In this document: in pieces, positions 1 to 18,430 of the stretch | Numbering within the stretch: position 1 is the stretch's first letter | Layout of the letters: each line of letters opens with the position of its first letter | Origin: Patescibacteria group bacterium | GTDB taxonomy: Bacteria; Patescibacteriota; Patescibacteriia; Patescibacteriales; UBA12465 | Direction of reading: 5' to 3' | DNA: 64,000 nt | Assembly: GCA_041664445.1 (NCBI GenBank) | Contig: JBAYKT010000001.1 | Span: 29,890-93,889 of the forward strand | The notes under the pieces: model-generated | The model's database searches: none | What the model saw: the letters and a program-made list of their open reading frames with translations, nothing else | What the model was told of the DNA's origin: nothing | Program-made: the position numbers and the translations under genes

Positions 1-1083
1 ATGTTTTGCGCCCTTCCAGGCCAATAATCCTGCCCCAGCCGCCGCGCCAATCGCCAGCTTGTTGCCTGTGCTGGATATCTTCCCAGCGACACCAGCGGCC
101 GCACCGCCAATTTCTTGAGCGATTTTCATGCCACCCAAAAGCATGGCGATAGAAATCACAAACTTAATCATGATGTCAGTCGTGCCCTTCTGACAAACGC
201 CGCTCTCATCTTTCTGACAAGTAATCTTGTTAGGGTCTTGTGGGCTACCGTCAATTCCTAAGCTTTGATTATTAAAACTAACGAGCGAAGTAAATGATAA
301 CCAGATAAAGAAGGCTAATACCGGGCCGACAATCAAATTCTTAGTAAAATCGCTCCACCACATTGAAGAATATTTGGAACCGCCAGGAAAAGCTGCTAAC
401 AAATAAGCGAAGGGAGACAAAACAACATAAACCCAAATCATAATAATGCGCATCACGAGCATTCCCAACATGGCTGTTACTGTGATTAAAGCAATAGCCG
501 AATAAATAACTGATAGAACAAAGGCCCCGGCCACTTCCCAGCTGCTAACATCTTCAAAGCCGTCCAATTTCTGCCAACCGGTAATACCCAACATATCGAC
601 CAAGCCGCCAGCCATCACATCCTTAAAGGCATTAACAAAAGTTAACATCACCACTTGAGCGACATCAATTAACAACCCGCAAATAGTCTTGGAGAAGTTT
701 ATTAAGATTGCCATCAAAATCAACTTTGGTAGCCATTTCTTATAACTATAATTTTCCAAACGTAAAATTGTGCCAAAAGCGATAACCAGAAGAATAATCA
801 CAAAGAACATGTTGGAAATATCACGAGCAATCACCCAGCCATTAGCAACCGCCGCGGCGTGGATGAAATTATTATACTGAGCGATATAAACCAACACCGC
901 CATCACTTTCGCTAAAATCCAACCTAAAACCGAGGCAATGCCAGAAGCCAGGCCTCCAACTACCGTGGTCACCCAATCAGCCCGTGCCGCTTGTGGTAAA
1001 AGTAAAACTAAAGCCGCCAAAAACAAAATTACCGACAGGGCTTTCTGGTGATTATTAAATTTTAGTTTCCGTTTGAAATTCAT
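1..1083 (-). CDS. Polytopic integral membrane protein, C-terminus cut by window edge (VirB6/TrbL-like topology; family unverified)
   Basis: Not in the supplied track. Hand translation of the minus strand from ATG at 1083..1081 stays open for all 361 codons down to position 1. It begins MNFKRKLKFNNHQKALSVILFLAALVLLLPQAARADW (signal-peptide-like), followed by several hydrophobic helices (e.g. ISNMFFVIILLVIAFGTIL, MLGMLVMRIIMIWVYVVLSPFAYLL, LIVGPVLAFFIWLSF). There is a 7-nt gap to the upstream gene. Confidence 0.75.
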   Translation of the reverse strand, partial: MNFKRKLKFNNHQKALSVILFLAALVLLLPQAARADWVTTVVGGLASGIASVLGWILAKVMAVLVYIAQYNNFIHAAAVANGWVIARDISNMFFVIILLVIAFGTILRLENYSYKKWLPKLILMAILINFSKTICGLLIDVAQVVMLTFVNAFKDVMAGGLVDMLGITGWQKLDGFEDVSSWEVAGAFVLSVIYSAIALITVTAMLGMLVMRIIMIWVYVVLSPFAYLLAAFPGGSKYSSMWWSDFTKNLIVGPVLAFFIWLSFTSLVSFNNQSLGIDGSPQDPNKITCQKDESGVCQKGTTDIMIKFVISIAMLLGGMKIAQEIGGAAAGVAGKISSTGNKLAIGAAAGAGLLAWKGAKH

Positions 1084-1090
1084 ATTTATA

Positions 1091-1771
1091 TTAATTGGCA
1101 ATAGCGCTAGTAACTACGCCCCAGATAAGACTAAACTCCGAAGCATAAAACCCTATCGGGTCTTCAATTAGTTTTACTAAAAGGACAATAACCGCGACGA
1201 TGGCAATAATTACAATTAATAAAAGCAAGTCTAAACCAACTAATACCATCGACTCACCGATATTGGCGCAACTACTTCCATTTTTAATAGTTATATAACC
1301 TGACTGCCCACCAACAATGGCATTAACTGATTTAGCCCCACCTGATATACCTCCGGTCGTCCACTCATCTCCCAATTTACAAAAAAAATCTCTACCAACC
1401 ACTAAACTCAAAAAAACATGAATATTTATCCAAATTAGGGTTAAGCCCCAACTGGGGATTAAATTAATCCAGGCGTCTTGCAATAATCTACTGGTTCCCT
1501 GACGCATTGGCGCGGCTGCTTTTTGTTTTAGACCGCCGCCAGATTTAGATTCCTCAGCCGCTTGTTTTCTTTTTTCAGCAATAACGGCCTCTCTTAAAGT
1601 TTGTGGCTCCGCAACTGACCCATCTTCAGAATCAGCGCCGCTTCTCTTGGCCTCATTTAAAGCCCCGGCTTTAGTTGCGCTGTTAGCATCGCCATCTTTT
1701 CCCATTAGGCGACTATCAAAATTGGAATCAAAGCCGGTTCCGGAATTGGAGCGGTCGTCGCTGGTCGCCAT
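1091..1771 (-). CDS. Membrane protein with a low-complexity N-terminal half and two predicted TM helices flanking a 2-Cys loop
   Basis: 226-aa ORF located 6 nt downstream of the giant gene. The N-terminal ~100 aa are Ser/Asp/Gly/Ala/Lys-rich. The C-terminal half has WGLTLIWINIHVFLSLVV and MVLVGLDLLLLIVIIAIVAVIVLLV helices around a loop containing two Cys (FFCKLGDEW...GSSCANIGE). Confidence 0.7.
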   Translation of the reverse strand: MATSDDRSNSGTGFDSNFDSRLMGKDGDANSATKAGALNEAKRSGADSEDGSVAEPQTLREAVIAEKRKQAAEESKSGGGLKQKAAAPMRQGTSRLLQDAWINLIPSWGLTLIWINIHVFLSLVVGRDFFCKLGDEWTTGGISGGAKSVNAIVGGQSGYITIKNGSSCANIGESMVLVGLDLLLLIVIIAIVAVIVLLVKLIEDPIGFYASEFSLIWGVVTSAIAN

Positions 1772-1777
1772 ATTTAA

Positions 1778-4700
1778 TTAATTACTCTTATTATCCCAGT
1801 TATCCCAGATGTTAACAATTATATTTTTATTAGGGTTCTGATTTCCAACACTAACCCCAGTGGCAAGTGGGCCGTAATAATGATAGAAAATATGAGGATT
1901 ATTAGAGTCACTTCTTTGATCTTGACCAGTAATTGCCTGCTTACTATCATCACCCCAATTAATATAAATCATCTTGAGTGGCTGCTGTTCAGGGTCTACT
2001 ATAGTATTAAATTCTAAGCTGTAGACGCCAGAAACACTAACCGTATTTTGATCAACACCATTCAACTTCAATTTTATATTTTCAACCTTCGGCAATTCGC
2101 CATTCTGTCCGACTGGCGGCAACCAACCACCGTCATCATCTGGTAAATAACTGCCAGCTTGATACTTAAAGGCGCCGTAAGATTGCAAGAATAGCTCTTT
2201 TAAGATGTCCTTGGTAGTATCAGAATCAGGTGCTGATGTCCATAATGGCCGACAAACACCGAAACCGCCATCAGAACAAGTCTTTCTATTTATATAATCA
2301 TTATCAGCTCTAGTGCTGGGCGTACAAACCGTAGTAGCTGTTTGACAGGTGCCTGATTGGTCAACTATCCAATCACAACCACCGGGTTCATTTGCTCCTG
2401 GGCAGCGATATTCTTCGTAACTACTACAATTATTATTAATATTTGCTTGAGGATCCATTGATTCACAACGCCCAGAAGATCCTTCGCAAAACCCAGCAGA
2501 ACAATCCGCAGAACTATCGCAACTATCCCCTGAATCAACGTAAGTTGTTATGCAGTTTTGGCTTGAAATAGCACCCGTGTTATTAAATACACACATTACA
2601 CTTGGATTATCGCTACAATAACCGATATTATTGCAGGCTGTACCGGTACAACCATAGGGGCGACCACCAAAAACAGTGGCATCATCTTTTTGATAATATT
2701 GATTTTGCAAATAAACCGGACCGCTATTTAATAAATCATAACTACTCGGTAGGACCGAGGAACCGAAAGGTACCCCATTACGTAGGCGCCCATATAAATT
2801 CAAACCATTGGCGGCGGCAACATCATTAAAGAAAAATGGGGTATTTGTGGCATAAGCCGGATTGGCCAAGATTCCAGTTCTGCCGGTCCAAGCCTTATTA
2901 TCGCCATTACCGGCAACTACCTGCGCAAAATTACTGCAAGTAAAGTTAAAGACATCACTGCGGTCACCATTAACAGCGGATAAATATTTCAGACCAGATT
3001 CATCAAAGGCTGGATAATTATTGTCATAGATTCTAATTGGCGGGTCAGCATTTTTAGCTTCGTCAATTGGGAAACAATCACCTTGAGCAACATCGTCACA
3101 TGTACCCACTGGTTGAATTATAAATTCGCCATCATATTTAACCCAGGCCGAATCATAAAATTTGATATCAGTGCAACCAGTGCCCGAAACATCACCAATG
3201 TATTCAAGGCTCATAGCATTGCTCTCCGGACCAACTCCAAATAAGAAATTAGGGTTCCCTTGTTCCGCTGTTCGAGGAACGCAATAAAGATAATAATTAT
3301 TCCAACTAGCGACATCATTAATTAATATTGCTCGATAGTTAACGGAATCTCCACATCTGCCAAGTGCATGGCTAGCACTTAATTCGAAACAACCTTGATT
3401 ATCATCAGCAATACCAAATTGCCCTTTTCGGCTATCTGTATTATAAACCAACTTGGTCGTAATCTTCTTAGCAAAGGAAATATTGGCATCAACGTTCGTA
3501 CAATAACTTAAGCTGGTCGGACCAGAGTAACCCAAACTTTGGCGACCCAAAACCGAGGAACTAACCCTATCAGCTGGATACCAACTAATACAAACCGAAG
3601 GATTATCTTTATCATGTTCTAAACAATACCCCTCCAAACCATCCTTAATAACGTTGGTGCTTTGATTTTTACAGCTCAAGCTGTCATTGGTCGGATATAA
3701 ACGGCATTCACGTGCCGCATACTGGTTATTACCCATTGCTAAGACTGGTTCAATATTAATATCATCAAAATAAATTTCCCCGGCCTGGGTATTATCAGAG
3801 GAAAGTCTAATTCTTACTTGAACATTATTAAATCGGGCATCACCAGAGTTAAACTTACTTATCTTTCTAGCCCAACCGTTAGTACTGGAGGCTGTAAATT
3901 GGGTTGTAATCGTGGAATCTCTAAACTCAATCGTTATCTTAGCATCCGAACTAGAATTCTTAGTATTCAATAAATAATTCAAATAATAGTCTTGATTAGG
4001 CGACAAGTTAATCCAAGAATTAGCGGACATCGGATAGACATTATAAGTTGAAGGCACTTTCAAATAGCTCTTGCCGGAAACGGGGTAATCAACCGTCGCT
4101 TTTTCCGGCTCACGAATTATTAAATTCTTAACAATACTATCAAACAGACAAGGACCGCCGGTAACAGCACGAACACAAGATAGCGGTGGAATAATTTCTT
4201 CAAAATCATAGTGAGCTTCGCTATTCAAACCAACTTCCTTCATATTACCAATATTATTTGGAGTCAAAGAATTGGCGCTTAAAGAGGAATAGCCGGTCGC
4301 ATTTTCTAAAGGCGGGGGAGTGGCGTTGGCAATAAAATTATTACACTCGCCTTTATCGCTAAGGCTGTTGCATTGTTGTAAAGAATAACAAATCTTGGCT
4401 CCAGTTTCGGGGTCAGTGGCATACGTCGTGCATCCTAACCAGCTAGCACAAACTCTATCCGGTCTAACTTTGATAAGTTGGTTGGCCGCGCAAGAGCCAC
4501 TAATGGCCGAGTCGCACTTTTCTGGAGAACGTTTTTCCAGGGTCGCATATGGGTCAAAGGCGCCGGTTAATTTAGTATAGCTAATGGCCGCCGGAGTGCT
4601 GCTGGCGCTGGAAATTGCTCTTTCGTTAAACAGAATACAACCGTTACTAAAATCTTCAATGCCATTACAACTACCCTTATCTAGCGCATTTTCCAATTGG

Positions 4701-7700
4701 TAACCAATGGCCGCCTCCCTAATATCGGCGGAAGTATTATTAACTGTAACTGTAGTATTTTCAAAAGAATTAAAGACAATCGCCTTGGTAGTGGCGCTGA
4801 TTGATAAGCGGGTAACTTCACCACTATAATTATTATCAGCGAGAAGATATCTGACGGGAGACGTAAATGTTATAGCCGGAATACTTGAATTATTCTTACG
4901 CTCTATAACATAAAGGGTATTCTTTTTTAATTTTGCCGATGAGTCGCTCGTAATATTCAAATTAGGGTTAAGCTTGCTAACCGGGTCAATATATTCGCTA
5001 CAAGTTGAAGCTTGAATCTCGCATAAACCAACCTCCTTATTTGGAACTGGAACCCTATTCCCTTCGCCACCAACGCCGATAGTTTTCAGATAGGAAATTT
5101 CGCAAGCATAGTCGTTATTATCAATAATACAAGGTTTGCCGGCACAATCATTAGTGCTTAAGCAGCTAGGATAATTCTTTTCAGTTCCTGCAATTTGACC
5201 GTTAGAATCAGCGTCGCAACGTTTAACCGGAGCTAAATACCAACTCTTCTGAGACGCGGTAGTAGCTGCAGTCCCTGCCGAAGCATTACGATAAACGCAA
5301 ACTTTATTGCCCGGGTCGCGGAAATAGCTCAAACCACCATCTTCAGCATCCTTCCATTCTTCACAACCGACACCTTCTTGGCCACACAAAATAGTATCAT
5401 ATTTATTAGGATTGTTTTTCTTGAAAACATCAGAATAAACTTTACCGGAACCGGAAACTTGAGATTGACCCAATAAGCTGCAGCCTAAGTCGGCCTGATT
5501 ACACTGCTTGCTCTTATCATAAATAACATACATCGCGCTGTCTGCCTTAACTTTGGTGCAGTTCAGCTCGCTAGCGTCGCATTGACCATTGCGGTTATCA
5601 TCACCCCAGAGACCAACACCATAAGGATTATAATTTTGAGTACCGATTACTTGTTCACAACCGACCGAAGCCGAGTCGCAAATACCGGAGAAGGAACGAA
5701 GATTATGATTGACACTGGAACGGTCAGAATAAGCCGCGCAACCTAAATTGTATTCTGCCCCCTGATAAGTGTCATAAATATCGTAGAAACAAACGTTAGG
5801 AATTTGGCTGGAATTTTTAATCAAATAATAACGATCGGTAATTTCCGTTAAAATAAAGTTATCCAGATAAAAATTACCATTAGCGGTTACTGCTAAAATT
5901 TCTGTAGCCGCAACTTCGTGGTCTAAATTATCTAAATTAGCGGAGTAAACTTGCCAAGCACCGCCGGCAGCTACTCGAAGCGTATTTCCATTATTAAAGG
6001 CGGATTTGGCGCCAGTATCTTTATTATAGAAATAAAGCTCTAGATCTGCACCGCCAGCCGAACTGGCCAAAAATTTAATACTATACGATTTTCCCTGAGA
6101 AACGCCATTGCCAACTTTTAACTGTGCCGCAAGATTAGCGCCGGCAAAAATCTGTTTAATAAGCGGGCTACTCTTAGCTAAAACGTGGGTATCGCTGCCA
6201 ATTGCCGAACAGGCGCTAGCGCTATTATTATATAGTAATGAGTGGCCGTTCTTACTGCTGGAGATAGCGGCCAAACTAATGCCGTTAGTACAGTTAGATG
6301 TCCAAGCACTAGTATTATTTTCAAAATCGTAAGAAGAAACTAAGCGAACATTGTTACCGGTATTGCCATTATATTCACGGCAACCATTATCGGCGGCGCT
6401 ACAAGTTTTCCCTTCTCCAGGAATGCCTTGATAGACACAAGCTTGATGGGTATTATCCCAAACACCACCATTCACACAGACAGAACAAGCACCCGCGGCA
6501 CTATCCCAATGTTTTTCAACACCGGTGCATTGAGTCTGTGATAATTGAGAATCATAATTCTTATCAGTCATGCGGTAAGCGCGACAATCATCAGAACAAG
6601 TAATTACTCGGGAATTTAAGTGATAGAAAACTTGACCGGCGGCGTTATAAAATTCACGGCAATCAGCATTATAAAGAGCGCTGGTAACCGAAGCATTATA
6701 AATAGCGGCGTTGCATAAGGCGCTATCGTTAGAAGTTACAGCCGGTCCGTTATTGCTAGTATCTTGTTTTAAGCTGGATAATTTTAATTGATAACCGTTA
6801 TCCGTGCCCTCCCAAGAATAGAAACTGGCGCAAGTCGTTTGATTTGGTTTAACGCATTGTTTTAAAGCCGAGTAGTATTCTCTCTGTTCGCCTCCGGCCG
6901 CGACATCGTCCAAATTAGTAAACTCATTACAACCGACCGCTTCGGCGTTACATTCCTTGGCAGTTTTCGGAATTAAATTTTCAGCAGTAGTTGGATTGAA
7001 ATATGTTTGTCGAGAAACATAGACATCGTAACCGACGCATTCTGAAGGACAATAATCGGCATTAGAAACTTTAGCCGGAACTGAGAAAACATTATTTTTA
7101 ACTGATTTAAAGAGTTCGCAGCCAACTTCTTCCGAAGAGCATTTGCGGGCATAATTTGCGCATTTAGCTGGCGCATTCGCTTTCAAATGATAACTTAAAC
7201 CATCAGTACTTGTTTCATAACAAGCACTTTCCAAATAAGGTGGTAATAATTTTTGATAAATCTTAGAAGCACCGTAAGAACTATAACCGGTGTCCCAATC
7301 GCTCATTTCAAATTTAATATTTTTGACATATAAGACTACCTGCCCGGAGGCTGAGGCCGTTATGGAAAACATCAACTGGCTGATACTGCTGGCCTTCCCG
7401 ACAATACTCGCATGCTGCCAAGAACCGCTAGTGCTTGTTTGATAAACCGCTTGGTTAACGCCGGCCGGACCGATAGCCAGCTTAACGTTATTACCGGTTG
7501 CCAAATAAACATCAGCGCTTAAAGTATAGGATTGACCGGCCACCAAATCTAAATTAGCTGGCAATAAAGAATTACTAGAATCGGAAAATACTGAAACAAC
7601 ACCGGTGTTGCTGGATAATTTCAAAGCCTTGCCCGTAGTAGAACCGGGCTCAACCGCGCTGTCAACAATTATCGCCTGGAAAGAACCGCCAGCGGCTAAT

Positions 7701-9928
7701 GGCCAAGAATTTAAGAAAGAATTAGTTGAAGAAGCTCCGAGCGCCTCGCTGCTAAAATCAGAATCCATTACTAGGTTTGCTCCCCAAGTCGGCTTAATTC
7801 TAATGAATTCCGAACAACCCTCATCTTTAGAAGAACAATTTTCGGCATTTTTATTCAAATAAACATTTTGCGCCGGATTCCAAGTAATGGTACCACTGGT
7901 TGAGTTATAAGAACCATTATTAGAATATTCTTTACAACCAGCATTTTCTAAACTGCAATTACCATAATCAAGAGTATTTTCCAAATAAGCAATTTTTTGG
8001 TTGGAAGAAGTGTTGGTAAAAGCCTGGCAAGTATTGTTAACCGGGGCGCAGGAATCGCCATCAAAGCTCCAGGTTCTCTTCTCTTCATTACAATAACCGA
8101 AAGCATCGCAACCGCCGCTGCTGTTTTCCTTGATACAGCTTTGGTTATCAGCGCAATAATCTTCCGCGCGCACTACGGTAACTTGACTGGCAACATATTC
8201 ACTATATTGAGTAGCCGCTTGTGAAGGAGTAACGTTTTTATTTAAAATCTGAGCGCTAACGCCATCTTTTTTACAAAAATTAAGCGGCGCTTTCAAAACC
8301 CAATTAGGGTCGACTAGGCCAGTGCACCAGGCTTGATTATCATCATCGAAATCAGAACTAAAAGTACTATATTCATCATCAGGCGCAAAACAAGAGACTA
8401 AATCTCCTAAAGTTGCCTTGGTTTTATCATCGGGATTAGTGACATTATAATTTTTAATTTTTTGCAAAGCGGTTTCCCAGCTGAGTGGTAAAATACGAAA
8501 TTCTCTTAAAATAGCGATATTACGCCAAGAATAACTGCTTTCATAACTGCCCGGCAAACTATCAACCGTCAATTGCCAATCGCCGTGCAGATAACCACTA
8601 GCAATTGCTTCAGCAACTGTCTTTTTTTCGGTTATTCCCTGCATTAACTTATCATCAATCACACAGTTAGTGGGACCCGGATTATTTTTATCCGGACAAG
8701 TGGCTAGTTCCGATAAAATGTCATATTGGGAGCCATTCCCAAAGCTTGGGGTAATCAGTTTAGTGGTCACTGCTTTAAGTGCCACTTCACCGCCACCAGA
8801 ACCAGGATCGCTTTCGTTGGTGGTTCCGGTAATAGACGCCGTGCTGGCAGTTTTCTTACCGATATTTTGCATTAAATTGTTAAAAGCAGAAATAGCGAGT
8901 TGATTCAAAAAGACATTGGCGGCATCAACAAAGGCGTCACCGGTATATTTACCGAAATTAGCGGCATATTCAGCCGATTTAGATTCAACCTGAAGTTGCG
9001 CGGCATTAGGCAGAGTTTTAGATGACCCGCTAATAGCCAAGGAGTCCAGCCAACCGCCCTTACCCGTCAAGGTAGTTTTGGCCACTGATTCAGCTTCAAT
9101 TTTTTCGCCCATCATATCAGTACTCGCCGTCCAATAAATTCCCAAGTCGCTGGAAGTCGGATCGAATAAACTAGGTAGAGTTTTTTCCAAAAAATCAGGG
9201 CTGGTAACATCTTTATATTTAGCGGCGGCATCGCTCCAATTCTTAACCATTTGCGAAGCAGTACAGCTTGGTCCTTGAGGACGACTCTGATTAGCCAATC
9301 CTAAACCAATTTTAACTTTTGATTCTAAAGAAGATGGCTGACAAAAATTAACGGTCAGACCACTAGATTTAACACCGGCAGCACAACTGTTAGCCGTTTT
9401 TTGACAAGCAGCATTACAATTTAAAGCCTCTGTAGAATTTGATTGTCCTAAATAACGGCTAGCGCATTTACTAAGACAGCTTTGATAATCATCAGTACAA
9501 CCGGCCGTGCTGTTACTGCCCTCAGAATAATTGTTAGCAAAATTTTCTAAAAAAGTTCCCGCCGCTTCATCGCCGATTTGCGCCATATAGGCTCCCCAAT
9601 CCTGAGTAACAAATAATGGCTTTTGACCTTGTCCGCCGGAACCGACCCAATTGGCGGTATCATAGGCCATTTTATTCAAAGCGGTTCTAAGCGTTTGCTG
9701 AAAGGCGAGTGAAGCGCTTTTTTTCAAAAGAGTCCCCGATATATTAGTAATCTTGTCCCAAATTAATTTGGGGATATCAGTGACGACCATCTGTGCTCTG
9801 GCGACTTTTATTGGAACCAGCGCGACAGTAAAGATTAAAACACAAAACAGCACAAAAACTTTAATTTTTTGGCTTAAAGCTTGATGCTGCTTCTTTGAAA
9901 ATAAAGAAGGCTTCATTTTATTCTTCAT
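1778..9928 (-). CDS. Giant (2,716 aa) cysteine-rich secreted/surface protein with three jelly-roll (CBM-like) modules and a PKD-like C-terminal domain; putative adhesin
   Basis: Uninterrupted 8.15-kb ORF with an N-terminal signal anchor (VFVLFCVLIFTVALVPIKVARA). About 100 Cys by hand count (~3.8%). A G-C-x-E-[FYW]-type motif recurs. Three segments end in YVKNIKFE / FYLDNFILTEI / IYFDDINIEPV, typical of the last strand of carbohydrate-binding jelly-roll modules. The C-terminus has IYINWGDDS...NPHIFYHYYG (PKD-like WxFGDG...H.Y pattern). Confidence 0.9.
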   Translation of the reverse strand: MKNKMKPSLFSKKQHQALSQKIKVFVLFCVLIFTVALVPIKVARAQMVVTDIPKLIWDKITNISGTLLKKSASLAFQQTLRTALNKMAYDTANWVGSGGQGQKPLFVTQDWGAYMAQIGDEAAGTFLENFANNYSEGSNSTAGCTDDYQSCLSKCASRYLGQSNSTEALNCNAACQKTANSCAAGVKSSGLTVNFCQPSSLESKVKIGLGLANQSRPQGPSCTASQMVKNWSDAAAKYKDVTSPDFLEKTLPSLFDPTSSDLGIYWTASTDMMGEKIEAESVAKTTLTGKGGWLDSLAISGSSKTLPNAAQLQVESKSAEYAANFGKYTGDAFVDAANVFLNQLAISAFNNLMQNIGKKTASTASITGTTNESDPGSGGGEVALKAVTTKLITPSFGNGSQYDILSELATCPDKNNPGPTNCVIDDKLMQGITEKKTVAEAIASGYLHGDWQLTVDSLPGSYESSYSWRNIAILREFRILPLSWETALQKIKNYNVTNPDDKTKATLGDLVSCFAPDDEYSTFSSDFDDDNQAWCTGLVDPNWVLKAPLNFCKKDGVSAQILNKNVTPSQAATQYSEYVASQVTVVRAEDYCADNQSCIKENSSGGCDAFGYCNEEKRTWSFDGDSCAPVNNTCQAFTNTSSNQKIAYLENTLDYGNCSLENAGCKEYSNNGSYNSTSGTITWNPAQNVYLNKNAENCSSKDEGCSEFIRIKPTWGANLVMDSDFSSEALGASSTNSFLNSWPLAAGGSFQAIIVDSAVEPGSTTGKALKLSSNTGVVSVFSDSSNSLLPANLDLVAGQSYTLSADVYLATGNNVKLAIGPAGVNQAVYQTSTSGSWQHASIVGKASSISQLMFSITASASGQVVLYVKNIKFEMSDWDTGYSSYGASKIYQKLLPPYLESACYETSTDGLSYHLKANAPAKCANYARKCSSEEVGCELFKSVKNNVFSVPAKVSNADYCPSECVGYDVYVSRQTYFNPTTAENLIPKTAKECNAEAVGCNEFTNLDDVAAGGEQREYYSALKQCVKPNQTTCASFYSWEGTDNGYQLKLSSLKQDTSNNGPAVTSNDSALCNAAIYNASVTSALYNADCREFYNAAGQVFYHLNSRVITCSDDCRAYRMTDKNYDSQLSQTQCTGVEKHWDSAAGACSVCVNGGVWDNTHQACVYQGIPGEGKTCSAADNGCREYNGNTGNNVRLVSSYDFENNTSAWTSNCTNGISLAAISSSKNGHSLLYNNSASACSAIGSDTHVLAKSSPLIKQIFAGANLAAQLKVGNGVSQGKSYSIKFLASSAGGADLELYFYNKDTGAKSAFNNGNTLRVAAGGAWQVYSANLDNLDHEVAATEILAVTANGNFYLDNFILTEITDRYYLIKNSSQIPNVCFYDIYDTYQGAEYNLGCAAYSDRSSVNHNLRSFSGICDSASVGCEQVIGTQNYNPYGVGLWGDDNRNGQCDASELNCTKVKADSAMYVIYDKSKQCNQADLGCSLLGQSQVSGSGKVYSDVFKKNNPNKYDTILCGQEGVGCEEWKDAEDGGLSYFRDPGNKVCVYRNASAGTAATTASQKSWYLAPVKRCDADSNGQIAGTEKNYPSCLSTNDCAGKPCIIDNNDYACEISYLKTIGVGGEGNRVPVPNKEVGLCEIQASTCSEYIDPVSKLNPNLNITSDSSAKLKKNTLYVIERKNNSSIPAITFTSPVRYLLADNNYSGEVTRLSISATTKAIVFNSFENTTVTVNNTSADIREAAIGYQLENALDKGSCNGIEDFSNGCILFNERAISSASSTPAAISYTKLTGAFDPYATLEKRSPEKCDSAISGSCAANQLIKVRPDRVCASWLGCTTYATDPETGAKICYSLQQCNSLSDKGECNNFIANATPPPLENATGYSSLSANSLTPNNIGNMKEVGLNSEAHYDFEEIIPPLSCVRAVTGGPCLFDSIVKNLIIREPEKATVDYPVSGKSYLKVPSTYNVYPMSANSWINLSPNQDYYLNYLLNTKNSSSDAKITIEFRDSTITTQFTASSTNGWARKISKFNSGDARFNNVQVRIRLSSDNTQAGEIYFDDINIEPVLAMGNNQYAARECRLYPTNDSLSCKNQSTNVIKDGLEGYCLEHDKDNPSVCISWYPADRVSSSVLGRQSLGYSGPTSLSYCTNVDANISFAKKITTKLVYNTDSRKGQFGIADDNQGCFELSASHALGRCGDSVNYRAILINDVASWNNYYLYCVPRTAEQGNPNFLFGVGPESNAMSLEYIGDVSGTGCTDIKFYDSAWVKYDGEFIIQPVGTCDDVAQGDCFPIDEAKNADPPIRIYDNNYPAFDESGLKYLSAVNGDRSDVFNFTCSNFAQVVAGNGDNKAWTGRTGILANPAYATNTPFFFNDVAAANGLNLYGRLRNGVPFGSSVLPSSYDLLNSGPVYLQNQYYQKDDATVFGGRPYGCTGTACNNIGYCSDNPSVMCVFNNTGAISSQNCITTYVDSGDSCDSSADCSAGFCEGSSGRCESMDPQANINNNCSSYEEYRCPGANEPGGCDWIVDQSGTCQTATTVCTPSTRADNDYINRKTCSDGGFGVCRPLWTSAPDSDTTKDILKELFLQSYGAFKYQAGSYLPDDDGGWLPPVGQNGELPKVENIKLKLNGVDQNTVSVSGVYSLEFNTIVDPEQQPLKMIYINWGDDSKQAITGQDQRSDSNNPHIFYHYYGPLATGVSVGNQNPNKNIIVNIWDNWDNKSN

Positions 9929-10641
9929 TATTGATTATTTAAAACTTCTTGATAACTTTTTAAAAGGTCGGCATCCGTAATTGCATCCAGCATAGTTTTA
10001 TCGGCACCATTGTCTAATAAAATTTGTCGTAGCGTCGGAGCATCAACTTGCCCAGCGAGCGCATTTTTTAAATCAGTTTCGCTGGTACTGGAAGAAACAC
10101 TAATCGTTCCCAAACCACCAGAAGAATAATCGGTGCTGCTGGCATTACTAATTGCTGAATCAGTCCCGGTAGCCACTTCAATCGCAAAATTATTACCACC
10201 GATACAATCCTGGCCAAGAGGACAATTGGGATCAGTTCCGTTTTTAGTTTCCAGACTATCTGTTAAACCGTCGCTATCCGAATCTTCTAAATAAGGTGAA
10301 GTTTGATAAACATTAAACTCATCATAATCCGACAAGCCATCGCTATCAGTATCTTTATTGGCGGTATCCACGGCGTCATCGGCTGTTGCTAATCCACTAA
10401 TATCGACTTGGAAAGGACTGATAACTCGATTCCTAAATTGCAAAGCGCCAAAAAATAAAATTACTACCCCTAATCCTAGCAAAAGAACCACGGCCGTTTT
10501 TTGCGGGCGCGGCATGTTCTTAAAACTAAAATCGGAAGAGTTGTTGTCTGAAAAATTAGACCCGGGCATAAATGAAATCTCAGCACTCTTAAAGAGCGAC
10601 TGATTGATTTTATTATACCATAAACGCGCTAAGCTCCGCAA
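9928..10641 (-). CDS. Single-pass membrane protein with thrombospondin-type-3-like acidic (Ca-binding) repeats
   Basis: TM helix TAVVLLLGLGVVILFFGAL, then DTDSDGLSDYDEF...EDSDSDGLTDSLETKNGTDPNCP (DxDxDG repeats). Its stop overlaps the giant-gene ATG by 1 nt (TAATG). The ORF overlaps rsmA by 29 nt, so the true start may be the internal Met at 10569 or 10515. Confidence 0.75.
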   Translation of the reverse strand: MRSLARLWYNKINQSLFKSAEISFMPGSNFSDNNSSDFSFKNMPRPQKTAVVLLLGLGVVILFFGALQFRNRVISPFQVDISGLATADDAVDTANKDTDSDGLSDYDEFNVYQTSPYLEDSDSDGLTDSLETKNGTDPNCPLGQDCIGGNNFAIEVATGTDSAISNASSTDYSSGGLGTISVSSSTSETDLKNALAGQVDAPTLRQILLDNGADKTMLDAITDADLLKSYQEVLNNQ

Positions 10642-13894: not shown

Positions 13895-14662
13895 TTAGTT
13901 AATTTCCAGCCCAACCGGAGCATGGTCGGAACCGGTCTGTTCATCTAAAATATAGGCTTTTTTTAGGTGTTTTTTAAGTTTATCGGATACACAGAAATAG
14001 TCAATCCGCCAGCCGACATTACGCGCCCGGGCACCGGCGCGAAAACTCCACCAAGAATATTGGATTTGATTGCCATTTAGGGCGCGATAAGTATCAACAA
14101 AACCGGCCGCTAAGAATTTATCCATGGAATCACGTTCTTCGGGGGTAAAACCGGGGCTACCAACGTTCTCTTTGGGTCGCGCCAAATCAATTTCTTGATG
14201 AGCGACATTAAAATCACCGGTAATTACTACTGGCTTCTTCTTTTCCAATTTTTTAGCATAATTAAGCAAGGCTTCATTAAACTCAATTTTATAGTCTAAA
14301 CGGCTAAGTTCTTGATTAGAATTGGGGAAATAAACGTTTAATAAATAGAAATCTTTAATTTCTAAGGTTTGCACTCGGCCTTCAATATCAAATTTTTCAA
14401 TTCCCAGACCATTTTTAATATCCAAAAAAATCGCCGTGCCACTTTTAATTAAAATGGCTGTGCCACTATATCCCGGGCGCTTGGCACTGTTCCAATATTC
14501 TTCATAACCAGCAAAATCAAATTCTGTTTGCTCTCTCGCAATATCGGAAATTTTTATCTCTTGTAAACACAAAATGTCCGGTTTTTGTTTCTTGATGAAA
14601 TCTAAAAAACCCTTCTTCGCCACCGCTCTTATTCCATTAACATTCCAAGAGATTATTTTCAT
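13895..14662 (-). CDS. xth: Exodeoxyribonuclease III (AP endonuclease)
   Basis: 255 aa with MKIISWNVNGIRA, LCLQEIK, GDFNVAH and SDHAPV, the hallmarks of the EEP-fold Xth family. Confidence 0.93.
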   Translation of the reverse strand: MKIISWNVNGIRAVAKKGFLDFIKKQKPDILCLQEIKISDIAREQTEFDFAGYEEYWNSAKRPGYSGTAILIKSGTAIFLDIKNGLGIEKFDIEGRVQTLEIKDFYLLNVYFPNSNQELSRLDYKIEFNEALLNYAKKLEKKKPVVITGDFNVAHQEIDLARPKENVGSPGFTPEERDSMDKFLAAGFVDTYRALNGNQIQYSWWSFRAGARARNVGWRIDYFCVSDKLKKHLKKAYILDEQTGSDHAPVGLEIN

Positions 14663-14668
14663 AAATTA

Positions 14669-14677
14669 TGTTATAAT
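14669..14677 (+). promoter_or_regulatory. Extended -10 promoter element (TGTTATAAT) for the dsbA-like/por operon
   Basis: TG-n-TATAAT at 14669..14677, about 47 nt upstream of ATG 14724, in the divergent region shared with the xth start. No good -35 element was seen. Confidence 0.4.
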
Positions 14678-14723
14678 AACAGCATACTGGAAACTAGATA
14701 TTTTTTCAATTTGCCAAAAAAAT

Positions 14724-15476
14724 ATGAGCTTAGAAGAAAGAGTCCAATACGCGGCCATGAAGGCGCGCCATGTAAAAAAATTACGCCCTTGGTATCTTAA
14801 ATGGTGGGGGATAATTTTATTAACCATTGCTTCCCTGATTTTAATTTTTGTGATTGCTTCCGGGATTTATGTCGTCAAGCAAGTTCAAGTCATAAATAGC
14901 GGGGCTACTGGACCCAGCGCCGAAGAACAAATGCAAACTTATTTAACCGCCATTAACGGCGAAAGTGATAACTCTTGGGGGCCGAGCAATGCTAAGGTAA
15001 CGATTGTAGAATTTGCCGATTTTGCTTGCCCTTACTGCGAACAATCATACCCGGCCATAAAAAATATCCAAGCAAACTATAGCGGTCAAGTGCGCATCAT
15101 TTATCGCGATTACCCTTTACATGACAATTCAATTTTTCTAGCCTTATCAGCACGTTGCGCCGGTGAACAAGGAAAATTTTGGCAAATGCATGATGTCTTT
15201 TTTGAGAATCAAGATAAATTTAACCTGACTCAAGAAGAATTAGCTGTTAATATTCCGGCCTTGGCCGAGACTTTAGGATTAAATCCCGACCAATTTAAGA
15301 CTTGTCTTGATAGTCAAAAATATTTCCCTCAGATAAAACAAGATTACGATGATGGAACTTATCTGCAAATTCAAGGGACTCCCACCTGGTTTATTAATAA
15401 TAAAATGTTTACCGGGGCTATGGACAAAGAAGGGCTGCAAACAATAGTCGACGGCTTGGTCAATATAATAAAGTAA
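14724..15476 (+). CDS. Membrane-anchored DsbA-family thiol:disulfide oxidoreductase
   Basis: TM anchor WWGIILLTIASLILIFVIASGIYVV followed by a thioredoxin fold with the active site FADFACPYCEQ (CxxC) and GTPTWFIN (cis-Pro region). Start set at ATG 14724, because the longer track ORF overlaps xth. Confidence 0.85.
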   Translation: MSLEERVQYAAMKARHVKKLRPWYLKWWGIILLTIASLILIFVIASGIYVVKQVQVINSGATGPSAEEQMQTYLTAINGESDNSWGPSNAKVTIVEFADFACPYCEQSYPAIKNIQANYSGQVRIIYRDYPLHDNSIFLALSARCAGEQGKFWQMHDVFFENQDKFNLTQEELAVNIPALAETLGLNPDQFKTCLDSQKYFPQIKQDYDDGTYLQIQGTPTWFINNKMFTGAMDKEGLQTIVDGLVNIIK

Positions 15477-16284: not shown

Positions 16285-17454
16285 ATGAAAGCTAAAAATA
16301 ACAATCAACATCAAGGTAAAGAAATTTTGGAAGGCTCGCGCGCCATTGCCTTAACGGTTAATAATATCGGACCGGAAGTCGTTTCCGCTTATCCGATAAC
16401 GCCGCAAACTCATATCGTTGAAGACTTGGCTAAATTTAAAGCCAACGGCCAGGCGGGATTTGAATATGTACGCGCCGAGAGCGAATTTGCTGCTGCCTCA
16501 ATTGTTCTTGGGGCGAGTGCCGCCGGAGCGCGCGTTTATAGTGCTACTAGTTCCCAGGGCTTATTGCTCATGGCCGAAGTCTTATACAACATTTCCGGCA
16601 TGCGCTTACCAATAGTAATGACTTGCGCTAACCGCGCCATCTCTTCGCCTATTAATATTTGGAATGATCATAGCGACGCGATGGCTGTCGCTGGTAGCGG
16701 CTGGCTCCAATTTTTCGCTGAAAATCATCAAGAAGCCGTTTACCAGCATTTACTCGCTTATAAGGTTGCAGAAAAAATGAATTTGCCTGCCCTAATTAAT
16801 GTTGACGGTTTTATTTTAACGCATTCTTATGAACCAGTAGCCATCCCCAATAAAAGTTTAATTAAAAAATATTTACCGGCTCGAAAACTGGAAGCGGGGA
16901 CTTTTTTAGACACTAACAATCCGGTAACTATGGGCGGCTTTTTCTCACCTAATGATTATTTAGATACCCGAAAGGATATTTGCCAAGACTTTGATTCCAG
17001 TTTGGCAATTATTAAAAAAGAATATCTTAATTTGAAAAAAGTATTTAAGTTCAAAGATAATGGCAACGGATTACTTGAGTATTCCGGCGCCAAAAAACCA
17101 AAAATAATTTTAATCTGCATGGGCTCACTCGCGGGAACCATTAAAGAAGCACTAAAAAAATATTCTGATGTCGGCTTATTAAAAATAACCACCTTCCGCC
17201 CCTTCCCAGCTGAAGAAATAAAAAAGGCGATTGGCCATTGCGTGAATGTAGCCGTTATTGAAAAAGCGATTAACCCCGGAAGCGGCGGTCCTTTATATTT
17301 AGAAACAAAAGCGGCTATTTTCGAGTTAGGAAAAATAAACATCCAAAATTATATTGCCGGTCTAGGCGGACATGACATCAGCGAAAAAATGATAGCTAAA
17401 ATTATTAAAGAAATGCGCGGCCGAGCAACAAACAAAATAAAATTTGTTAATTAA
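16285..17454 (+). CDS. porA: Pyruvate:ferredoxin oxidoreductase, alpha subunit
   Basis: 389 aa with LEGSRAIALTV...SAYPITPQTHIVE and the correct size and position for PorA. Confidence 0.9.
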   Translation: MKAKNNNQHQGKEILEGSRAIALTVNNIGPEVVSAYPITPQTHIVEDLAKFKANGQAGFEYVRAESEFAAASIVLGASAAGARVYSATSSQGLLLMAEVLYNISGMRLPIVMTCANRAISSPINIWNDHSDAMAVAGSGWLQFFAENHQEAVYQHLLAYKVAEKMNLPALINVDGFILTHSYEPVAIPNKSLIKKYLPARKLEAGTFLDTNNPVTMGGFFSPNDYLDTRKDICQDFDSSLAIIKKEYLNLKKVFKFKDNGNGLLEYSGAKKPKIILICMGSLAGTIKEALKKYSDVGLLKITTFRPFPAEEIKKAIGHCVNVAVIEKAINPGSGGPLYLETKAAIFELGKINIQNYIAGLGGHDISEKMIAKIIKEMRGRATNKIKFVN

Positions 17455-17455
17455 T

Positions 17456-18430
17456 ATGAAAATTAAACTGCCAAAATTAGTAATTAATTTAAGTTTTGGA
17501 CTATTAGTCTGTTTTTCCTTATTGTTTCTGCCGGCCAGCTTAGCCCTCGCGGCCGATGCAATAAAATTCACGCCGCAAATTCCCATCCCTGGCATGGGTT
17601 CGGGAGCAATTGATGTCGGTACGACCGTGGATGGAAAAATGACCAGTGATTTATTGGCTAGATATATTAAAGCAATGTATGACTACGGCTTAAAGGCCGC
17701 TGGAATTTTAGCAGCCGTTATTTTAATGGGTGGTGGTTTAATCTGGCTTACTTCTGCTGGCAATGAATCAAAAATTGGCCAAGCCAAGGAAATGATTGTG
17801 GGCGCCATCAGCGGTTTAGTAATTTTATTTAGTGCTTGGTTAATTTTGAATACAGTTAATCCGGCACTTTTAAGTTTGACGCCAGTGAGTTTAACAAAGT
17901 TAACGGTCAATGCTGATTATTTAATAACTGATTTAAAAAATGCTCCAGCGGATATGAAATATGGTTGGATATGTATGAATAGCACTGATCAGCGATGCGA
18001 AGACAACATTCCTCCTTCTTTAAATTTAGATGCAAGTATTTGTCGCACAGGGACGCCTTCAAATTCAGAGCCAACAGATTGCCCATATAATCAAAAAAAA
18101 TGCTGTGGTCAAAGTAATATAGTTACTCAAACCGCTGATAATTTTTGCAAAGATGAGGATGACTACACTCCTTGCGTCTTAAATTCAACAGCGGTAAACA
18201 AGGGTTACTGTTACCAAGAAAAATGTATTAACACTAAAGTTTGCTGTCAATGTGGACAAGGCGAAGTTGCCGGTGTTTATGTTTATGTAACTTGTAAAAA
18301 TGACATTTTACCAGCCGAATGTGCAAGCTGGTGTATAAATGGCTGGGTTGGTTCCTCTTATAAAATGTATGTTCCAAATTCGTCTTATTCTTGTGCTGGC
18401 GGGGCAATGAGCTATTGCCGACAACAATAA
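17456..18430 (+). CDS. Exported protein: signal peptide + T4SS-pilin-like (VirB2/TrbC-like) two-helix hairpin + Cys-rich C-terminal domain
   Basis: Signal peptide LVCFSLLFLPASLALAADA. The hairpin is GLKAAGILAAVILMGGGLIWLTSAGNESKIGQAKEMIVGAISGLVILFSAWLIL. About 18 Cys fall in the last ~165 aa, including CC pairs. The start is 1 nt after the porA stop, and the stop is 4 nt before the porB start. Confidence 0.8.
   Translation: MKIKLPKLVINLSFGLLVCFSLLFLPASLALAADAIKFTPQIPIPGMGSGAIDVGTTVDGKMTSDLLARYIKAMYDYGLKAAGILAAVILMGGGLIWLTSAGNESKIGQAKEMIVGAISGLVILFSAWLILNTVNPALLSLTPVSLTKLTVNADYLITDLKNAPADMKYGWICMNSTDQRCEDNIPPSLNLDASICRTGTPSNSEPTDCPYNQKKCCGQSNIVTQTADNFCKDEDDYTPCVLNSTAVNKGYCYQEKCINTKVCCQCGQGEVAGVYVYVTCKNDILPAECASWCINGWVGSSYKMYVPNSSYSCAGGAMSYCRQQ

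What the first reader, a model, noticed from the sequence alone, without database searches (positions are those of the whole stretch)
1778..9928. Modular architecture of the giant protein: recurrent G-C-x-E-[FYW] motif, three jelly-roll modules, PKD-like end
The translation shows a short Cys-containing motif recurring at least a dozen times along the protein. Examples are NAGCKEY, DEGCSEF, EVGCELF, AVGCNEF, ADCREFY, DNGCREY, SVGCEQV, GVGCEEW, ASTCSEY, SNGCILF, WLGCTTY and ARECRLY. This suggests a repeated, disulfide-stabilised module that I cannot match to a named repeat family.

Three Cys-poor segments are interspersed among these repeats, at about 7300-7780, 5840-6350 and 3750-4220 in DNA coordinates. 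They look like carbohydrate-binding beta-jelly-roll modules: each starts near an acidic D-F-(S/E)-x motif and ends in a hydrophobic-D-[ND]-[IF]-x-[LI]-x-[EP] strand.

The last ~100 aa (about 1790-2100) resemble a PKD/Ig-like domain. My hand count is about 100 cysteines in total, which implies roughly 50 disulfides in a presumably anaerobic fermenter.
Basis: seen in the sequence. Interest (0 to 1): 0.6.

Follow-up and report, generated by a model that had tools for sequence, protein, structure and literature searches.

The report
Giant cysteine-stapled surface protein of Falkowbacteria
This is a real 2,716-residue secreted protein, conserved across hundreds of Falkowbacteria (ultra-small CPR bacteria) genomes, built from three sugar-binding-type beta-sandwich modules separated by rigid cysteine-rich spacers, and it is most likely a cell-surface attachment protein whose function nobody has yet tested.

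Summary
ORF 1778-9928 (-) encodes 2,716 aa with 103 Cys. 81 of these Cys are kept in at least 90% of 120 homologues.

The recurrent motif is real, but it is best described as an 11-residue C-x6-C unit: C-[NSD]-x4-G-C-x-[EQ]-aromatic. C-x6-C spacing occurs 16 times against 4.2 expected (0 of 2000 shuffles). No Pfam or NCBIfam model covers it. It is a short motif, not a demonstrable domain-length repeat.

All three Cys-poor segments are CBM4/9/16/22-like jelly-rolls:
- JR2 passes the Pfam threshold.
- JR1 and JR3 are supported by AF2 plus Foldseek, with TM 0.65-0.70 to CBMs.

The C-terminus is predicted as a 7-strand beta-sandwich with a PKD-like WGDGS motif. PKD membership is not shown.

The family is Falkowbacteria-wide (449 GTDB hits, about 1,000 clusters at 50% identity) and every member is annotated 'hypothetical'. 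The gene sits in a conserved cluster: membrane DsbA/MdbA-like oxidoreductase, xth, leuS, ksgA, a TSP3-repeat membrane protein (translationally coupled), the giant, a 2-TM protein, and an ~870-aa TrbL/VirB6-like membrane protein.

Best reading: a Sec-exported, ~51-disulfide surface stalk or adhesin with lectin-like modules and a variable C-terminal third. The function is inferred, not shown.

The parts
1778..9928 (-). Giant ORF: 2,716 aa, 103 Cys. 100% identical to MAG protein WCW61_00145, which is annotated 'hypothetical'.
9794..9928 (-). Sec-type signal peptide, res 1-45. Lys-rich n-region, hydrophobic core within res 17-49, and a conserved A-[KRQ]-A|Q signal-peptidase motif at res 43-45.
   Evidence: read from the sequence (no SignalP run)
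8174..9793 (-). Conserved N-terminal region, res 46-585. Few Cys, predicted mainly helical at low confidence, no family match. It occurs only inside giants of this family.
9383..9499 (-). Six-Cys helical hairpin, res 144-182, with a palindromic pattern: C-x6-C-x3-C ... C-x3-C-x6-C. Absent from about 15% of homologues.
7793..8173 (-). Cys-rich stretch 1, res 586-712, 10 invariant Cys. C-x6-C units at 627, 658 and 698. Length is invariant in the family (sd 1.1 aa).
7289..7792 (-). Jelly-roll module 1 (JR1), res 713-880, CBM4/9/16/22/61-like.
6359..7288 (-). Cys-rich stretch 2, res 881-1190, 22 Cys. C-x6-C units at 923, 930, 993 and 1176. Contains a moderately confident small beta domain at about res 1030-1110.
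5813..6358 (-). Jelly-roll module 2 (JR2), res 1191-1372. Pfam CBM_4_9 above the gathering score.
4979..5812 (-). Cys-rich stretch 3, res 1373-1650, 18 Cys. C-x6-C units at 1417, 1450, 1476, 1515 and 1636. Includes a small Cys sub-module (Cys 1571-1600) that is lost as a unit in 4 homologues.
4694..4978 (-). Cys-free beta module, res 1651-1745. Variable in sequence and length.
4259..4693 (-). Cys-rich stretch 4, res 1746-1890, 9 Cys.
3719..4258 (-). Jelly-roll module 3 (JR3), res 1891-2070, CBM-like.
2921..3523 (-). Mixed beta/alpha domain, res 2136-2336. Confidently modelled (pLDDT 64-92), yet the most variable part of the family in sequence and length. No match to anything.
2294..2578 (-). 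Lineage-specific Cys-rich insert, res 2451-2545, 10 Cys. Present in only about 4% of homologues.
1781..2098 (-). C-terminal 7-strand beta-sandwich, res 2611-2716, with I-[DN]-W-G-D-[GD]-S and PHxFYHYY motifs. PKD-like at motif level only.
9928..10569 (-). Upstream single-pass membrane protein with two bacterial TSP3 (Ca-binding type) repeats. Its stop codon overlaps the giant's ATG. Found upstream in 41 of 41 full-flank loci. The real start is probably the ATG at 10569, not the TTG at 10641.
1091..1771 (-). Downstream 226-aa protein with two TM segments. It starts 6 nt after the giant's stop and is conserved.
1..1083 (-). N-terminal 361 aa of an ~867-aa polytopic membrane protein; the ORF runs off the window. 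About 8 TM segments, then a ~540-aa charged tail. Distant TrbL/VirB6-like.
14724..15476 (+). Membrane-anchored DsbA/MdbA-like thiol-disulfide oxidoreductase with a CPYC motif. Transcribed divergently. Within 6 kb upstream in 37 of 41 loci.

Best explanation
The gene encodes a Sec-exported cell-surface protein of a Falkowbacteria (CPR/Patescibacteria) cell. It probably works as a long, rigid, disulfide-stapled stalk that presents lectin-like modules to a partner cell or to a polysaccharide.

**Proposed mechanism**
1. The signal peptide is cut at the conserved AxA site (inferred).
2. The ~102 mature cysteines are oxidised to ~51 disulfides by the neighbouring membrane-anchored DsbA/MdbA-like enzyme (inferred).
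3. The short C-x6-C-x-E-aromatic units close small loops or hairpins, and the length-invariant Cys-rich stretches act as stiff spacers (inferred).
4. The three CBM-like jelly-rolls bind glycans. The fold is shown; binding is inferred.
5. The conserved N-terminal third holds the protein at the envelope through the co-transcribed membrane proteins: the TSP3-repeat protein, the 2-TM protein and the VirB6-like polytopic protein (inferred).
6. The hypervariable C-terminal third (beta module, JR3 loops, res 2136-2336 domain, inserts) is the partner-specific end (inferred).
For: **A real, strongly constrained gene**
- 292 homologues in the first search. The 120 listed are mostly 2,600-2,950 aa; a few are partial.
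- 449 hits in GTDB species genomes; the informatively named ones are mostly Falkowbacteria.
- 1,022 clusters at 50% identity, and the top 150 are all giants or fragments of them.

**Export**
- One N-terminal hydrophobic segment and a conserved AxA motif.
- No other TM segment and no LPXTG.

**Disulfides rather than metal sites**
- 81 of 103 Cys are at least 90% conserved.
- 84% of homologues have an even Cys number, and Cys are lost or substituted in pairs.
- There is only one CxxC and no CxxCH.
- The DsbA-like CPYC protein is syntenic.
- MdbA-like oxidoreductases are a CPR-enriched family (10.1101/335083).

**Lectin-type modules**
- Pfam CBM_4_9 on JR2.
- AF2 plus Foldseek on JR1 and JR3.
- BFVD matches to phage tail-fibre and CenC-CBM proteins.

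**Spacer role of the Cys-rich stretches**
- Their lengths have sd 1-6 aa across the family. The variable regions have sd 12-38 aa.

**Operon**
- The upstream stop codon overlaps the giant's start, and the next gene starts after a 6-nt gap.
- The TSP3 protein is found in 41 of 41 loci.
- The VirB6-like protein lies on the same contigs as the giants: about 30 matching contig lengths.
- TrbL hits at E 4e-5 to 1e-3 with near-full profile coverage in 3 homologues.

**No catalytic domain was found by any search**.
Against: - Nothing here shows location, binding or disulfides experimentally.
- A CBM-like fold does not prove glycan binding.
- More than half of the residues have AF2 pLDDT below 50. The Cys-rich scaffold and the N-terminal third are therefore structurally unknown and could hide an enzyme.
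- No recognised anchoring domain is present, so retention at the surface is conjecture.
- The TrbL/VirB6 similarity of the neighbour is below Pfam's threshold (19-24 vs 25.9 bits) and absent in most of the 11 homologues scanned.
- No VirB4 lies in the locus.
- In class ABY1, T4SS loci are reported next to comF/recG/radA, not here (PMC12102498).
Confidence: 0.5

Rival explanations
1. It is an envelope structural protein (S-layer or sheath-like coat) of Falkowbacteria. On this reading the CBM-like modules bind the cell's own wall polymers rather than a partner cell.
For: - It is present lineage-wide at one conserved chromosomal position next to housekeeping genes.
- The scaffold lengths are strongly conserved.
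- The window also carries wall and polysaccharide genes: murJ, mur ligases, ddl and a pyruvyl transferase.
Against: - From general knowledge, S-layer proteins are usually Cys-poor and much smaller.
- No SLH or other wall-binding domain was found.
- The hypervariable C-terminal third fits partner recognition better than a lattice.
Confidence: 0.2
2. It is a giant polysaccharide- or cell-wall-degrading enzyme. The catalytic domain would be unrecognised (the N-terminal region or res 2136-2336), targeted by three CBMs, as in multi-modular glycoside hydrolases and the giant predatory proteins of Omnitrophota.
For: - From general knowledge, CBM4/9/22 modules are normally appended to glycoside hydrolases.
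- Foldseek's top hits include CBMs of xylanases, arabinanases and hyaluronate lyase.
- Giant genes have been linked to cell-wall degradation (10.1101/2023.11.21.568195, listed; not read).
Against: - No catalytic family was detected at any threshold by Pfam, NCBIfam, a PDB profile search or Foldseek.
- The res 2136-2336 domain is the least conserved part of the protein, which is unlike an active site.
Confidence: 0.12
3. It is the surface adhesin or extracellular component of a T4SS-derived apparatus, playing the role of PrgB-type adhesins in Gram-positive conjugation systems. It would work with the VirB6-like channel protein encoded two genes downstream.
For: - The downstream ~867-aa protein has about 8 TM segments plus a long cytoplasmic tail. 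By recollection this resembles monoderm VirB6 homologues such as TcpH; that comparison was not checked here.
- It gives sub-threshold TrbL hits with full profile coverage.
- Two T4SS_pilin-domain ORFs lie 7-11 kb away, and this is conserved.
- A phylum-wide survey found no PrgB-like adhesin in Patescibacteria (PMC12102498), so that role is unassigned.
Against: - No VirB4, VirB3 or coupling protein lies in the cluster.
- ABY1 T4SS loci are reported elsewhere in the genome.
- TrbL scores are below the gathering threshold.
- There is no PDB sequence match.
Confidence: 0.15

Closest known systems
CBM4 / CBM9 / CBM16 / CBM22 / CBM61 carbohydrate-binding modules (Pfam CBM_4_9, PF02018)
   Same: - All three Cys-poor segments have the beta-jelly-roll fold. 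Foldseek gives TM 0.65-0.70 to 2xom, 3jxs, 2zew and 3oea.
- JR2 passes the Pfam threshold.
- The terminal 'hydrophobic-D-D/N-hydrophobic' strand is present.
   Different: - Here the modules sit inside a 2,716-aa protein with no recognisable catalytic domain.
- They are separated by long Cys-rich stretches.
- Sequence identity to solved CBMs is only 12-18%.
- Ligand binding is untested.
Giant modular bacterial surface adhesins (e.g. SiiE, Embp/Ebh, the Mobiluncus 7,651-aa adhesin, PrgB)
   Same: It is a very large exported protein built of many small beta-rich modules with lectin-like elements. It has intramolecular cross-links for rigidity, as do the disulfide, ester and isopeptide bonds of the Mobiluncus adhesin (PMC10619420 abstract).
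   Different: - It has no tandem array of one Ig-like repeat.
- It has no LPXTG sortase motif.
- The scaffold is a non-periodic set of Cys-rich stretches with about 51 putative disulfides.
- The family is confined to Falkowbacteria-type CPR genomes.
PKD domain (PF00801 / PF18911; PDB 1B4R)
   Same: - The C-terminal ~100 aa are predicted as a 7-strand beta-sandwich.
- They carry I-D-W-G-D-G-S followed about 14 residues later by H-x-F-Y-H-Y-Y.
- hhalign aligns this with WDFGDGS of 1B4R.
   Different: - Pfam PKD models are not matched: 1 of 25 members, at E 0.11-0.23.
- The hhalign alignment spans only 17 columns (E 0.025).
TrbL/VirB6 (PF04610) and monoderm VirB6-like proteins, for the gene two positions downstream
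   Same: - The N-terminal domain is polytopic and is followed by a long cytoplasmic tail.
- TrbL profile positions 2-209 of 215 are aligned in three homologues.
   Different: - Scores are 19-24 bits against a gathering score of 25.9.
- There is no adjacent VirB4.
Phage tail-fibre / host-specificity proteins with CenC-type CBM modules (BFVD)
   Same: Both have a multi-beta-sandwich architecture with CenC-like CBMs; the best BFVD hit has E 3.7e-8.
   Different: - Overall TM is low (0.1-0.2).
- The gene is chromosomal, housekeeping-linked and vertically conserved, not a phage gene.

Membership tests
CBM_4_9 (PF02018) jelly-roll carbohydrate-binding module | Sequence match to the family HMM above the gathering score | tested here: met
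   - JR2 scores 29.0 bits against a cut-off of 25.9, E 1.5e-6.
- JR1 reaches only 15.1 bits, and JR3 reaches 19.3 bits to the related PF22637. So the criterion is met for one module of three.
CBM_4_9 (PF02018) jelly-roll carbohydrate-binding module | Beta-sandwich jelly-roll fold | tested here: met
   - AF2 pLDDT is 68-90 for JR1 and 61-88 for JR3.
- Foldseek against PDB hits CBM61/4/16/22 at E 3e-6 to 1e-3, with target TM up to 0.70.
- JR2 was not modelled.
CBM_4_9 (PF02018) jelly-roll carbohydrate-binding module | Binds a carbohydrate ligand | not testable with these tools
   Needs glycan arrays or binding assays with recombinant modules.
PKD domain (PF00801 / PF18911) | Sequence match to the family HMM | tested here: not met
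   Only 1 of 25 C-termini matches, at E 0.11 (PKD_4) and 0.23 (PKD). The window's own C-terminus gives no hit.
PKD domain (PF00801 / PF18911) | WDFGDGS-type motif, a later H-x-Y motif, and an Ig-like beta-sandwich | tested here: inconclusive
   - hhalign puts IDWGDGS on WDFGDGS of 1B4R (17 columns, E 0.025).
- AF2 gives 7 strands at pLDDT 67-83.
Any described Cys-rich repeat family (Pfam-A, NCBIfam) | HMM match over the Cys-rich stretches | tested here: not met
   - Pfam gives no hit at E <= 10 for res 881-1190, 1373-1650, 1651-1890, 2071-2450 or 2451-2716. The piece containing stretch 1 (res 586-880) hit only CBM_4_9, in its JR1 part, plus a chance-level Transp_Tc5_C match at E 2.4.
- NCBIfam gives none for the whole protein.
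- The PDB profile search finds only CBM-region hits.
Internal tandem repeat domain | Significant profile self-similarity over a domain-length unit | tested here: not met
   - The hhalign self-comparison gives off-diagonal matches of 10-50 columns at E 0.02-0.3, all centred on C-x6-C sites.
- Fragment-against-whole blastp reaches at best E 0.001.
- There is no consensus outside the 11-residue core.
Disulfide-bonded extracytoplasmic protein | Exported, with conserved, paired cysteines and an oxidoreductase available | tested here: met
   - A signal peptide with an AxA site.
- 81 of 103 Cys are at least 90% conserved.
- An even Cys number in 84% of homologues, and pairwise loss of Cys.
- A syntenic DsbA-like CPYC protein.
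- The disulfide bonds themselves have not been observed.
TrbL/VirB6 (PF04610), for the downstream ~867-aa protein | HMM match above the gathering score | tested here: not met
   Scores are 19.2, 22.0 and 23.9 bits against 25.9 in 3 of 11 homologues scanned. Profile coverage is 2-209 of 215.
TrbL/VirB6 (PF04610), for the downstream ~867-aa protein | Encoded with VirB4 and other T4SS core genes | tested here: not met
   No VirB4 lies within 8-10 kb in three loci.
Sortase-anchored (LPXTG) Gram-positive adhesins | C-terminal LPXTG motif plus a hydrophobic tail | tested here: not met
   There is no LPxT[GAN] motif and no C-terminal hydrophobic segment.

The most novel reading that the evidence does not exclude
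The giant and its three co-transcribed membrane partners may form a Falkowbacteria-specific host-contact organelle. The partners are the TSP3-repeat protein, the 2-TM protein and the VirB6-like polytopic protein. The extracellular shaft of this organelle would be built from a so-far undescribed disulfide 'C-x6-C knuckle' fold. The giant would be the missing adhesin or conduit component of the repurposed, relaxase-less secretion machinery of Patescibacteria.
Probability: 0.2. Interest if true: 0.75.

Novelty: new variant of a known kind. Interest (0 to 1): 0.5.

Why it matters
Falkowbacteria and other CPR bacteria are thought to live attached to other cells, but the molecules that make contact are largely unknown outside the Saccharimonadia. 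This protein is a concrete candidate for that role, for four reasons:
- It is about 290 kDa and conserved across the whole lineage.
- It is exported and carries lectin-type modules.
- It has a hypervariable distal end.
- It has conserved membrane partners.

It also defines an unclassified cysteine-rich scaffold (about 51 disulfides, with an 11-residue C-x6-C unit). Finally, it shows that heavy oxidative folding is built into the surface biology of a fermentative organism: an MdbA/DsbA-type enzyme is kept next to the gene.

Tried and rejected
- **Plain self-BLAST.** blastp of the whole protein against itself returned nothing or only the identity hit. Fragment-against-whole blastp gave only weak hits.
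- **Whole-family hhalign self-comparison.** It showed no domain-length repeat.
- **NCBIfam on the giant and its neighbours.** Nothing apart from the housekeeping genes.
- **PDB sequence and profile searches.**
  - The whole-family profile gave only E ~0.06-0.09 CBM hits.
  - The N-terminal region and res 2130-2420 gave nothing meaningful.
  - The VirB6-like profile gave nothing.
- **Alignment size.** The first 60-sequence alignment was too large for AF2, so 28-sequence alignments were used. This probably limited model quality in the Cys-rich parts.
- **Metal-cluster or multihaem reading of the cysteines.** Rejected: one CxxC and no CxxCH.
- **Phage or mobile-element origin.** Rejected: conserved housekeeping synteny.
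- **Literature.** Searches found no description of this family.
Full report
**What is there.** The window is a chromosomal piece of a CPR/Patescibacteria genome. It carries leuS, ksgA, xth, rpoB/C, ftsK, mur genes, PFOR and an ADP-forming acetyl-CoA synthetase-type enzyme. The minus-strand ORF 1778..9928 encodes 2,716 aa. It is 100% identical to a MAG protein annotated 'hypothetical' (WCW61_00145) and 88% identical to one from a complete Candidatus Falkowbacteria chromosome, CP066698.

**The family.**
- The first search found 292 relatives. The 120 listed are mostly 2,600-2,950 aa at 42-88% identity, and a few are partial. None has a functional name.
- A scan of one genome per GTDB species found 449 encoding stretches. 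The informatively named records are mostly Candidatus Falkowbacteria. Several carry obviously wrong bin labels such as 'uncultured Gammaproteobacteria'.
- The N-terminal 555 aa hit 1,022 clusters at 50% identity in the 1.84-billion-protein library. The best 150 are all giants or fragments of them.

So this is a real, vertically conserved, lineage-typical gene.

**Checking the observation: cysteines and motif.**
- There are 103 cysteines.
- In an alignment of 120 homologues, 81 of them are conserved in at least 90% of sequences, although overall identity is 40-60%.
- Ten of the non-conserved ones lie in an insert (res 2451-2545) found in only ~4% of homologues.
- Strict G-C-x-E-[FYW] occurs 5 times against 0.03 expected. 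C-x-E-[FYW] occurs 7 times against 0.4. C-x5-G-C occurs 8 times against 0.3. None of 5000 shuffles reaches these counts.

The underlying regularity is a C-x6-C pair. It occurs 16 times against 4.2 +/- 1.95 expected, and 0 of 2000 shuffles reach that number. CC and CxC never occur.

Eleven of these sites share a core: C-[NSD]-[AS]-x-[EDA]-x-G-C-x-[EQ]-[YFWLV]. They are at res 627, 658, 698, 930, 993, 1176, 1417, 1450, 1476, 1515 and 1636. Each is conserved at its own position across the family, but the flanks have no common consensus. Two further sites (144, 175) belong to a different element: a six-Cys palindromic pattern that AF2 models as a helical hairpin.

**Is it a repeat domain?** Not demonstrably.
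- Whole-protein self-BLAST found nothing or only the identity hit. Fragment BLAST gave at best E 0.001.
- A profile-profile self-comparison of the family alignment gives only 10-50-column off-diagonal matches at E 0.02-0.3. All are centred on the C-x6-C sites.
- Pfam at E <= 10 and NCBIfam find nothing meaningful in the Cys-rich stretches.
- AF2 leaves most of them below pLDDT 50.

There is a significantly enriched, conserved short motif, but no periodic module. The Cys-rich stretches are also almost invariant in length across the family (sd 1.1 aa for res 586-712, 0.9 aa for res 2071-2143, and 3-8.5 aa for the longer ones). Other regions vary by tens of residues.

**Disulfides.** These are inferred, not observed.
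- The protein has a single N-terminal hydrophobic segment and a conserved A-[KRQ]-A|Q motif.
- It has no other TM segment and no LPXTG.
- It has one CxxC and no CxxCH, which argues against metal or haem sites.
- 84% of homologues have an even number of Cys.
- C513 and C535 are replaced together in two homologues. C1450/C1457 are deleted together in three. Cys 1571, 1589, 1595 and 1600 disappear together in four.
- A membrane-anchored DsbA-like protein with a CPYC motif lies four genes upstream on the other strand. It is found there in 37 of 41 related loci with full flanks.
- MdbA-like oxidoreductases, often next to VKOR, are a CPR-enriched family (10.1101/335083).

So ~51 disulfides in a fermentative organism is not paradoxical.

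**Jelly-rolls.**
- The D-F-[SE] starts are at res 724, 1201 and 1908. The hydrophobic-[DK]-[ND]-[IF]-x-[LIF]-x-[EPM] end strands are at res 868, 1355 and 2054.
- JR2 matches Pfam CBM_4_9 above the gathering score.
- JR1 and JR3 give weak in-register hits (E 0.03 and 0.0014).
- JR1-JR3 and JR2-JR3 align in register by hhalign (E 0.0019 and 0.034).
- AF2 models JR1 (pLDDT 68-90) and JR3 (pLDDT 61-88) as all-beta.
- Foldseek against the PDB returns CBM61, CBM4, CBM16 and CBM22 modules at E down to 3e-6, with target TM 0.65-0.70.
- BFVD returns phage tail-fibre and CenC-CBM proteins.

**C-terminus.** Residues 2611-2716 are modelled as seven strands at pLDDT 67-83. The family consensus is I-D-W-G-D-G-S ... 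P-H-x-F-Y-H-Y-Y ... D-N-W. This recalls the PKD signature, and hhalign aligns it with WDFGDGS of polycystin-1 PKD (1B4R), but only over 17 columns at E 0.025. Pfam PKD models hit 1 of 25 family C-termini, at E 0.11-0.23. The supportable statement is 'Ig-like beta-sandwich, PKD-like at motif level'. PKD membership is not shown.

**Other parts.**
- Res 46-585 is conserved, Cys-poor, predicted mostly helical at low confidence, and matches nothing.
- Res 1651-1745 is a variable Cys-free beta module.
- Res 2136-2336 is confidently modelled (pLDDT 64-92), yet it is the least conserved and most length-variable region. It has no sequence relative in the PDB.

**Context.**
- The upstream ORF is a single-pass membrane protein with TSP3 repeats. 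Its stop codon overlaps the giant's ATG.
- The next gene, a 226-aa protein with two TM segments, starts 6 nt after the giant's stop.
- After it comes an ~867-aa protein whose first 361 aa are in the window.
- The order DsbA | xth-leuS-ksgA-TSP3-giant-2TM-~870 aa-~310 aa is kept in loci whose giants are only 43-48% identical.
- Among 41 loci with full flanks, TSP3 and KsgA are present in 41, LeuS in 39, Xth in 38 and DsbA in 37. Downstream counts are limited by the flank length.
- The ~870-aa protein has about 8 TM segments and a ~540-aa charged tail.
- Three of 11 homologues scanned hit Pfam TrbL/VirB6 at E 4e-5 to 1e-3 over nearly the whole profile. These scores are just under the gathering score.
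- No VirB4 is nearby.
- A recent survey places ABY1-class T4SS loci next to comF/recG/radA. The same survey found no PrgB-like adhesins in Patescibacteria (PMC12102498).

**Interpretation.** The best-supported reading is a Sec-exported, heavily disulfide-bonded surface protein. Length-invariant Cys-rich stretches space out three lectin-type jelly-rolls. The conserved N-terminal third probably contacts the co-transcribed membrane proteins, and the variable C-terminal third is the specificity end.
- Shown: export signals, Cys conservation and pairing statistics, the CBM-like folds, and synteny.
- Inferred: the disulfides themselves, glycan binding, surface retention and the adhesive role.

Three rivals cannot be excluded: an envelope or S-layer protein, an enzyme with an unrecognised catalytic domain, and a T4SS-associated adhesin.

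**Novelty.** The kind of protein is known: a giant modular surface protein with CBM-like modules. The family, its C-x6-C scaffold and its operon are undescribed in Pfam and NCBIfam and in the literature searched.

Noticed in passing
window 17444-18430 (+) and 19318-20886 (+): Two ORFs with the T4SS_pilin domain (PF18895; E 9e-7 and 9e-9) are interleaved with the pyruvate:ferredoxin oxidoreductase subunit genes. The same arrangement is kept in the complete Falkowbacteria chromosome (L084). It is an odd place for pilin-like membrane proteins.
   Followed up: partly
window 9383-9499 (-), giant res 144-182: There is a six-Cys palindromic pattern, C-x6-C-x3-C ... C-x3-C-x6-C. AF2 models it as two antiparallel helices (pLDDT 65-80), which suggests a triple-disulfide helical hairpin. 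The whole element is missing from about 15% of homologues.
   Followed up: partly
window 2294-2578 (-), giant res 2451-2545: A 95-aa insert with 10 extra Cys is present in only about 4% of the 120 aligned homologues. Other homologues carry unrelated inserts of up to 181 aa at the same point.
   Followed up: partly
window 1778-9928 (-): Among 103 Cys there is not one CC or CxC pair, although about 4.3 of each are expected from shuffles. This suggests selection against vicinal cysteines.
   Followed up: partly
window 9928-10641 (-) and 14574-15476 (+): The mechanical ORF starts are probably too long.
- The TSP3 protein most likely starts at the ATG at 10569. Homologues are 205-214 aa, and the TTG start overlaps ksgA by 29 nt.
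- The DsbA-like protein most likely starts at M51 (14724). Its homologue in L084 is 250 aa.
   Followed up: partly
L010, L013, L015 and many others; L055; L005: Many public MAGs that carry this Falkowbacteria-type gene and its synteny are labelled 'uncultured Gammaproteobacteria', 'Bacillota bacterium' or 'Candidatus Saccharimonadales'. These are most likely placeholder or wrong taxonomic labels.
   Followed up: no
L084 24733-26073 (+): A 446-aa protein with a Por_Secre_tail (T9SS C-terminal sorting) domain lies in a complete Falkowbacteria chromosome, a few genes downstream of the giant's cluster. This is unexpected in a presumed monoderm CPR bacterium.
   Followed up: no
window 31127-32617 (-): A 496-aa ORF has no Pfam match at E <= 0.001. 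It sits next to a divergently transcribed PEP-utilising-enzyme-domain ORF of identical length (496 aa).
   Followed up: no
L002 122-2379 (-): In a distant relative, the DsbA-like gene is flanked by a T4SS_pilin-domain protein and an Amidase_2 (peptidoglycan amidase) protein instead of PFOR genes. So pilin-like genes stay near this locus even when the metabolic genes differ.
   Followed up: no
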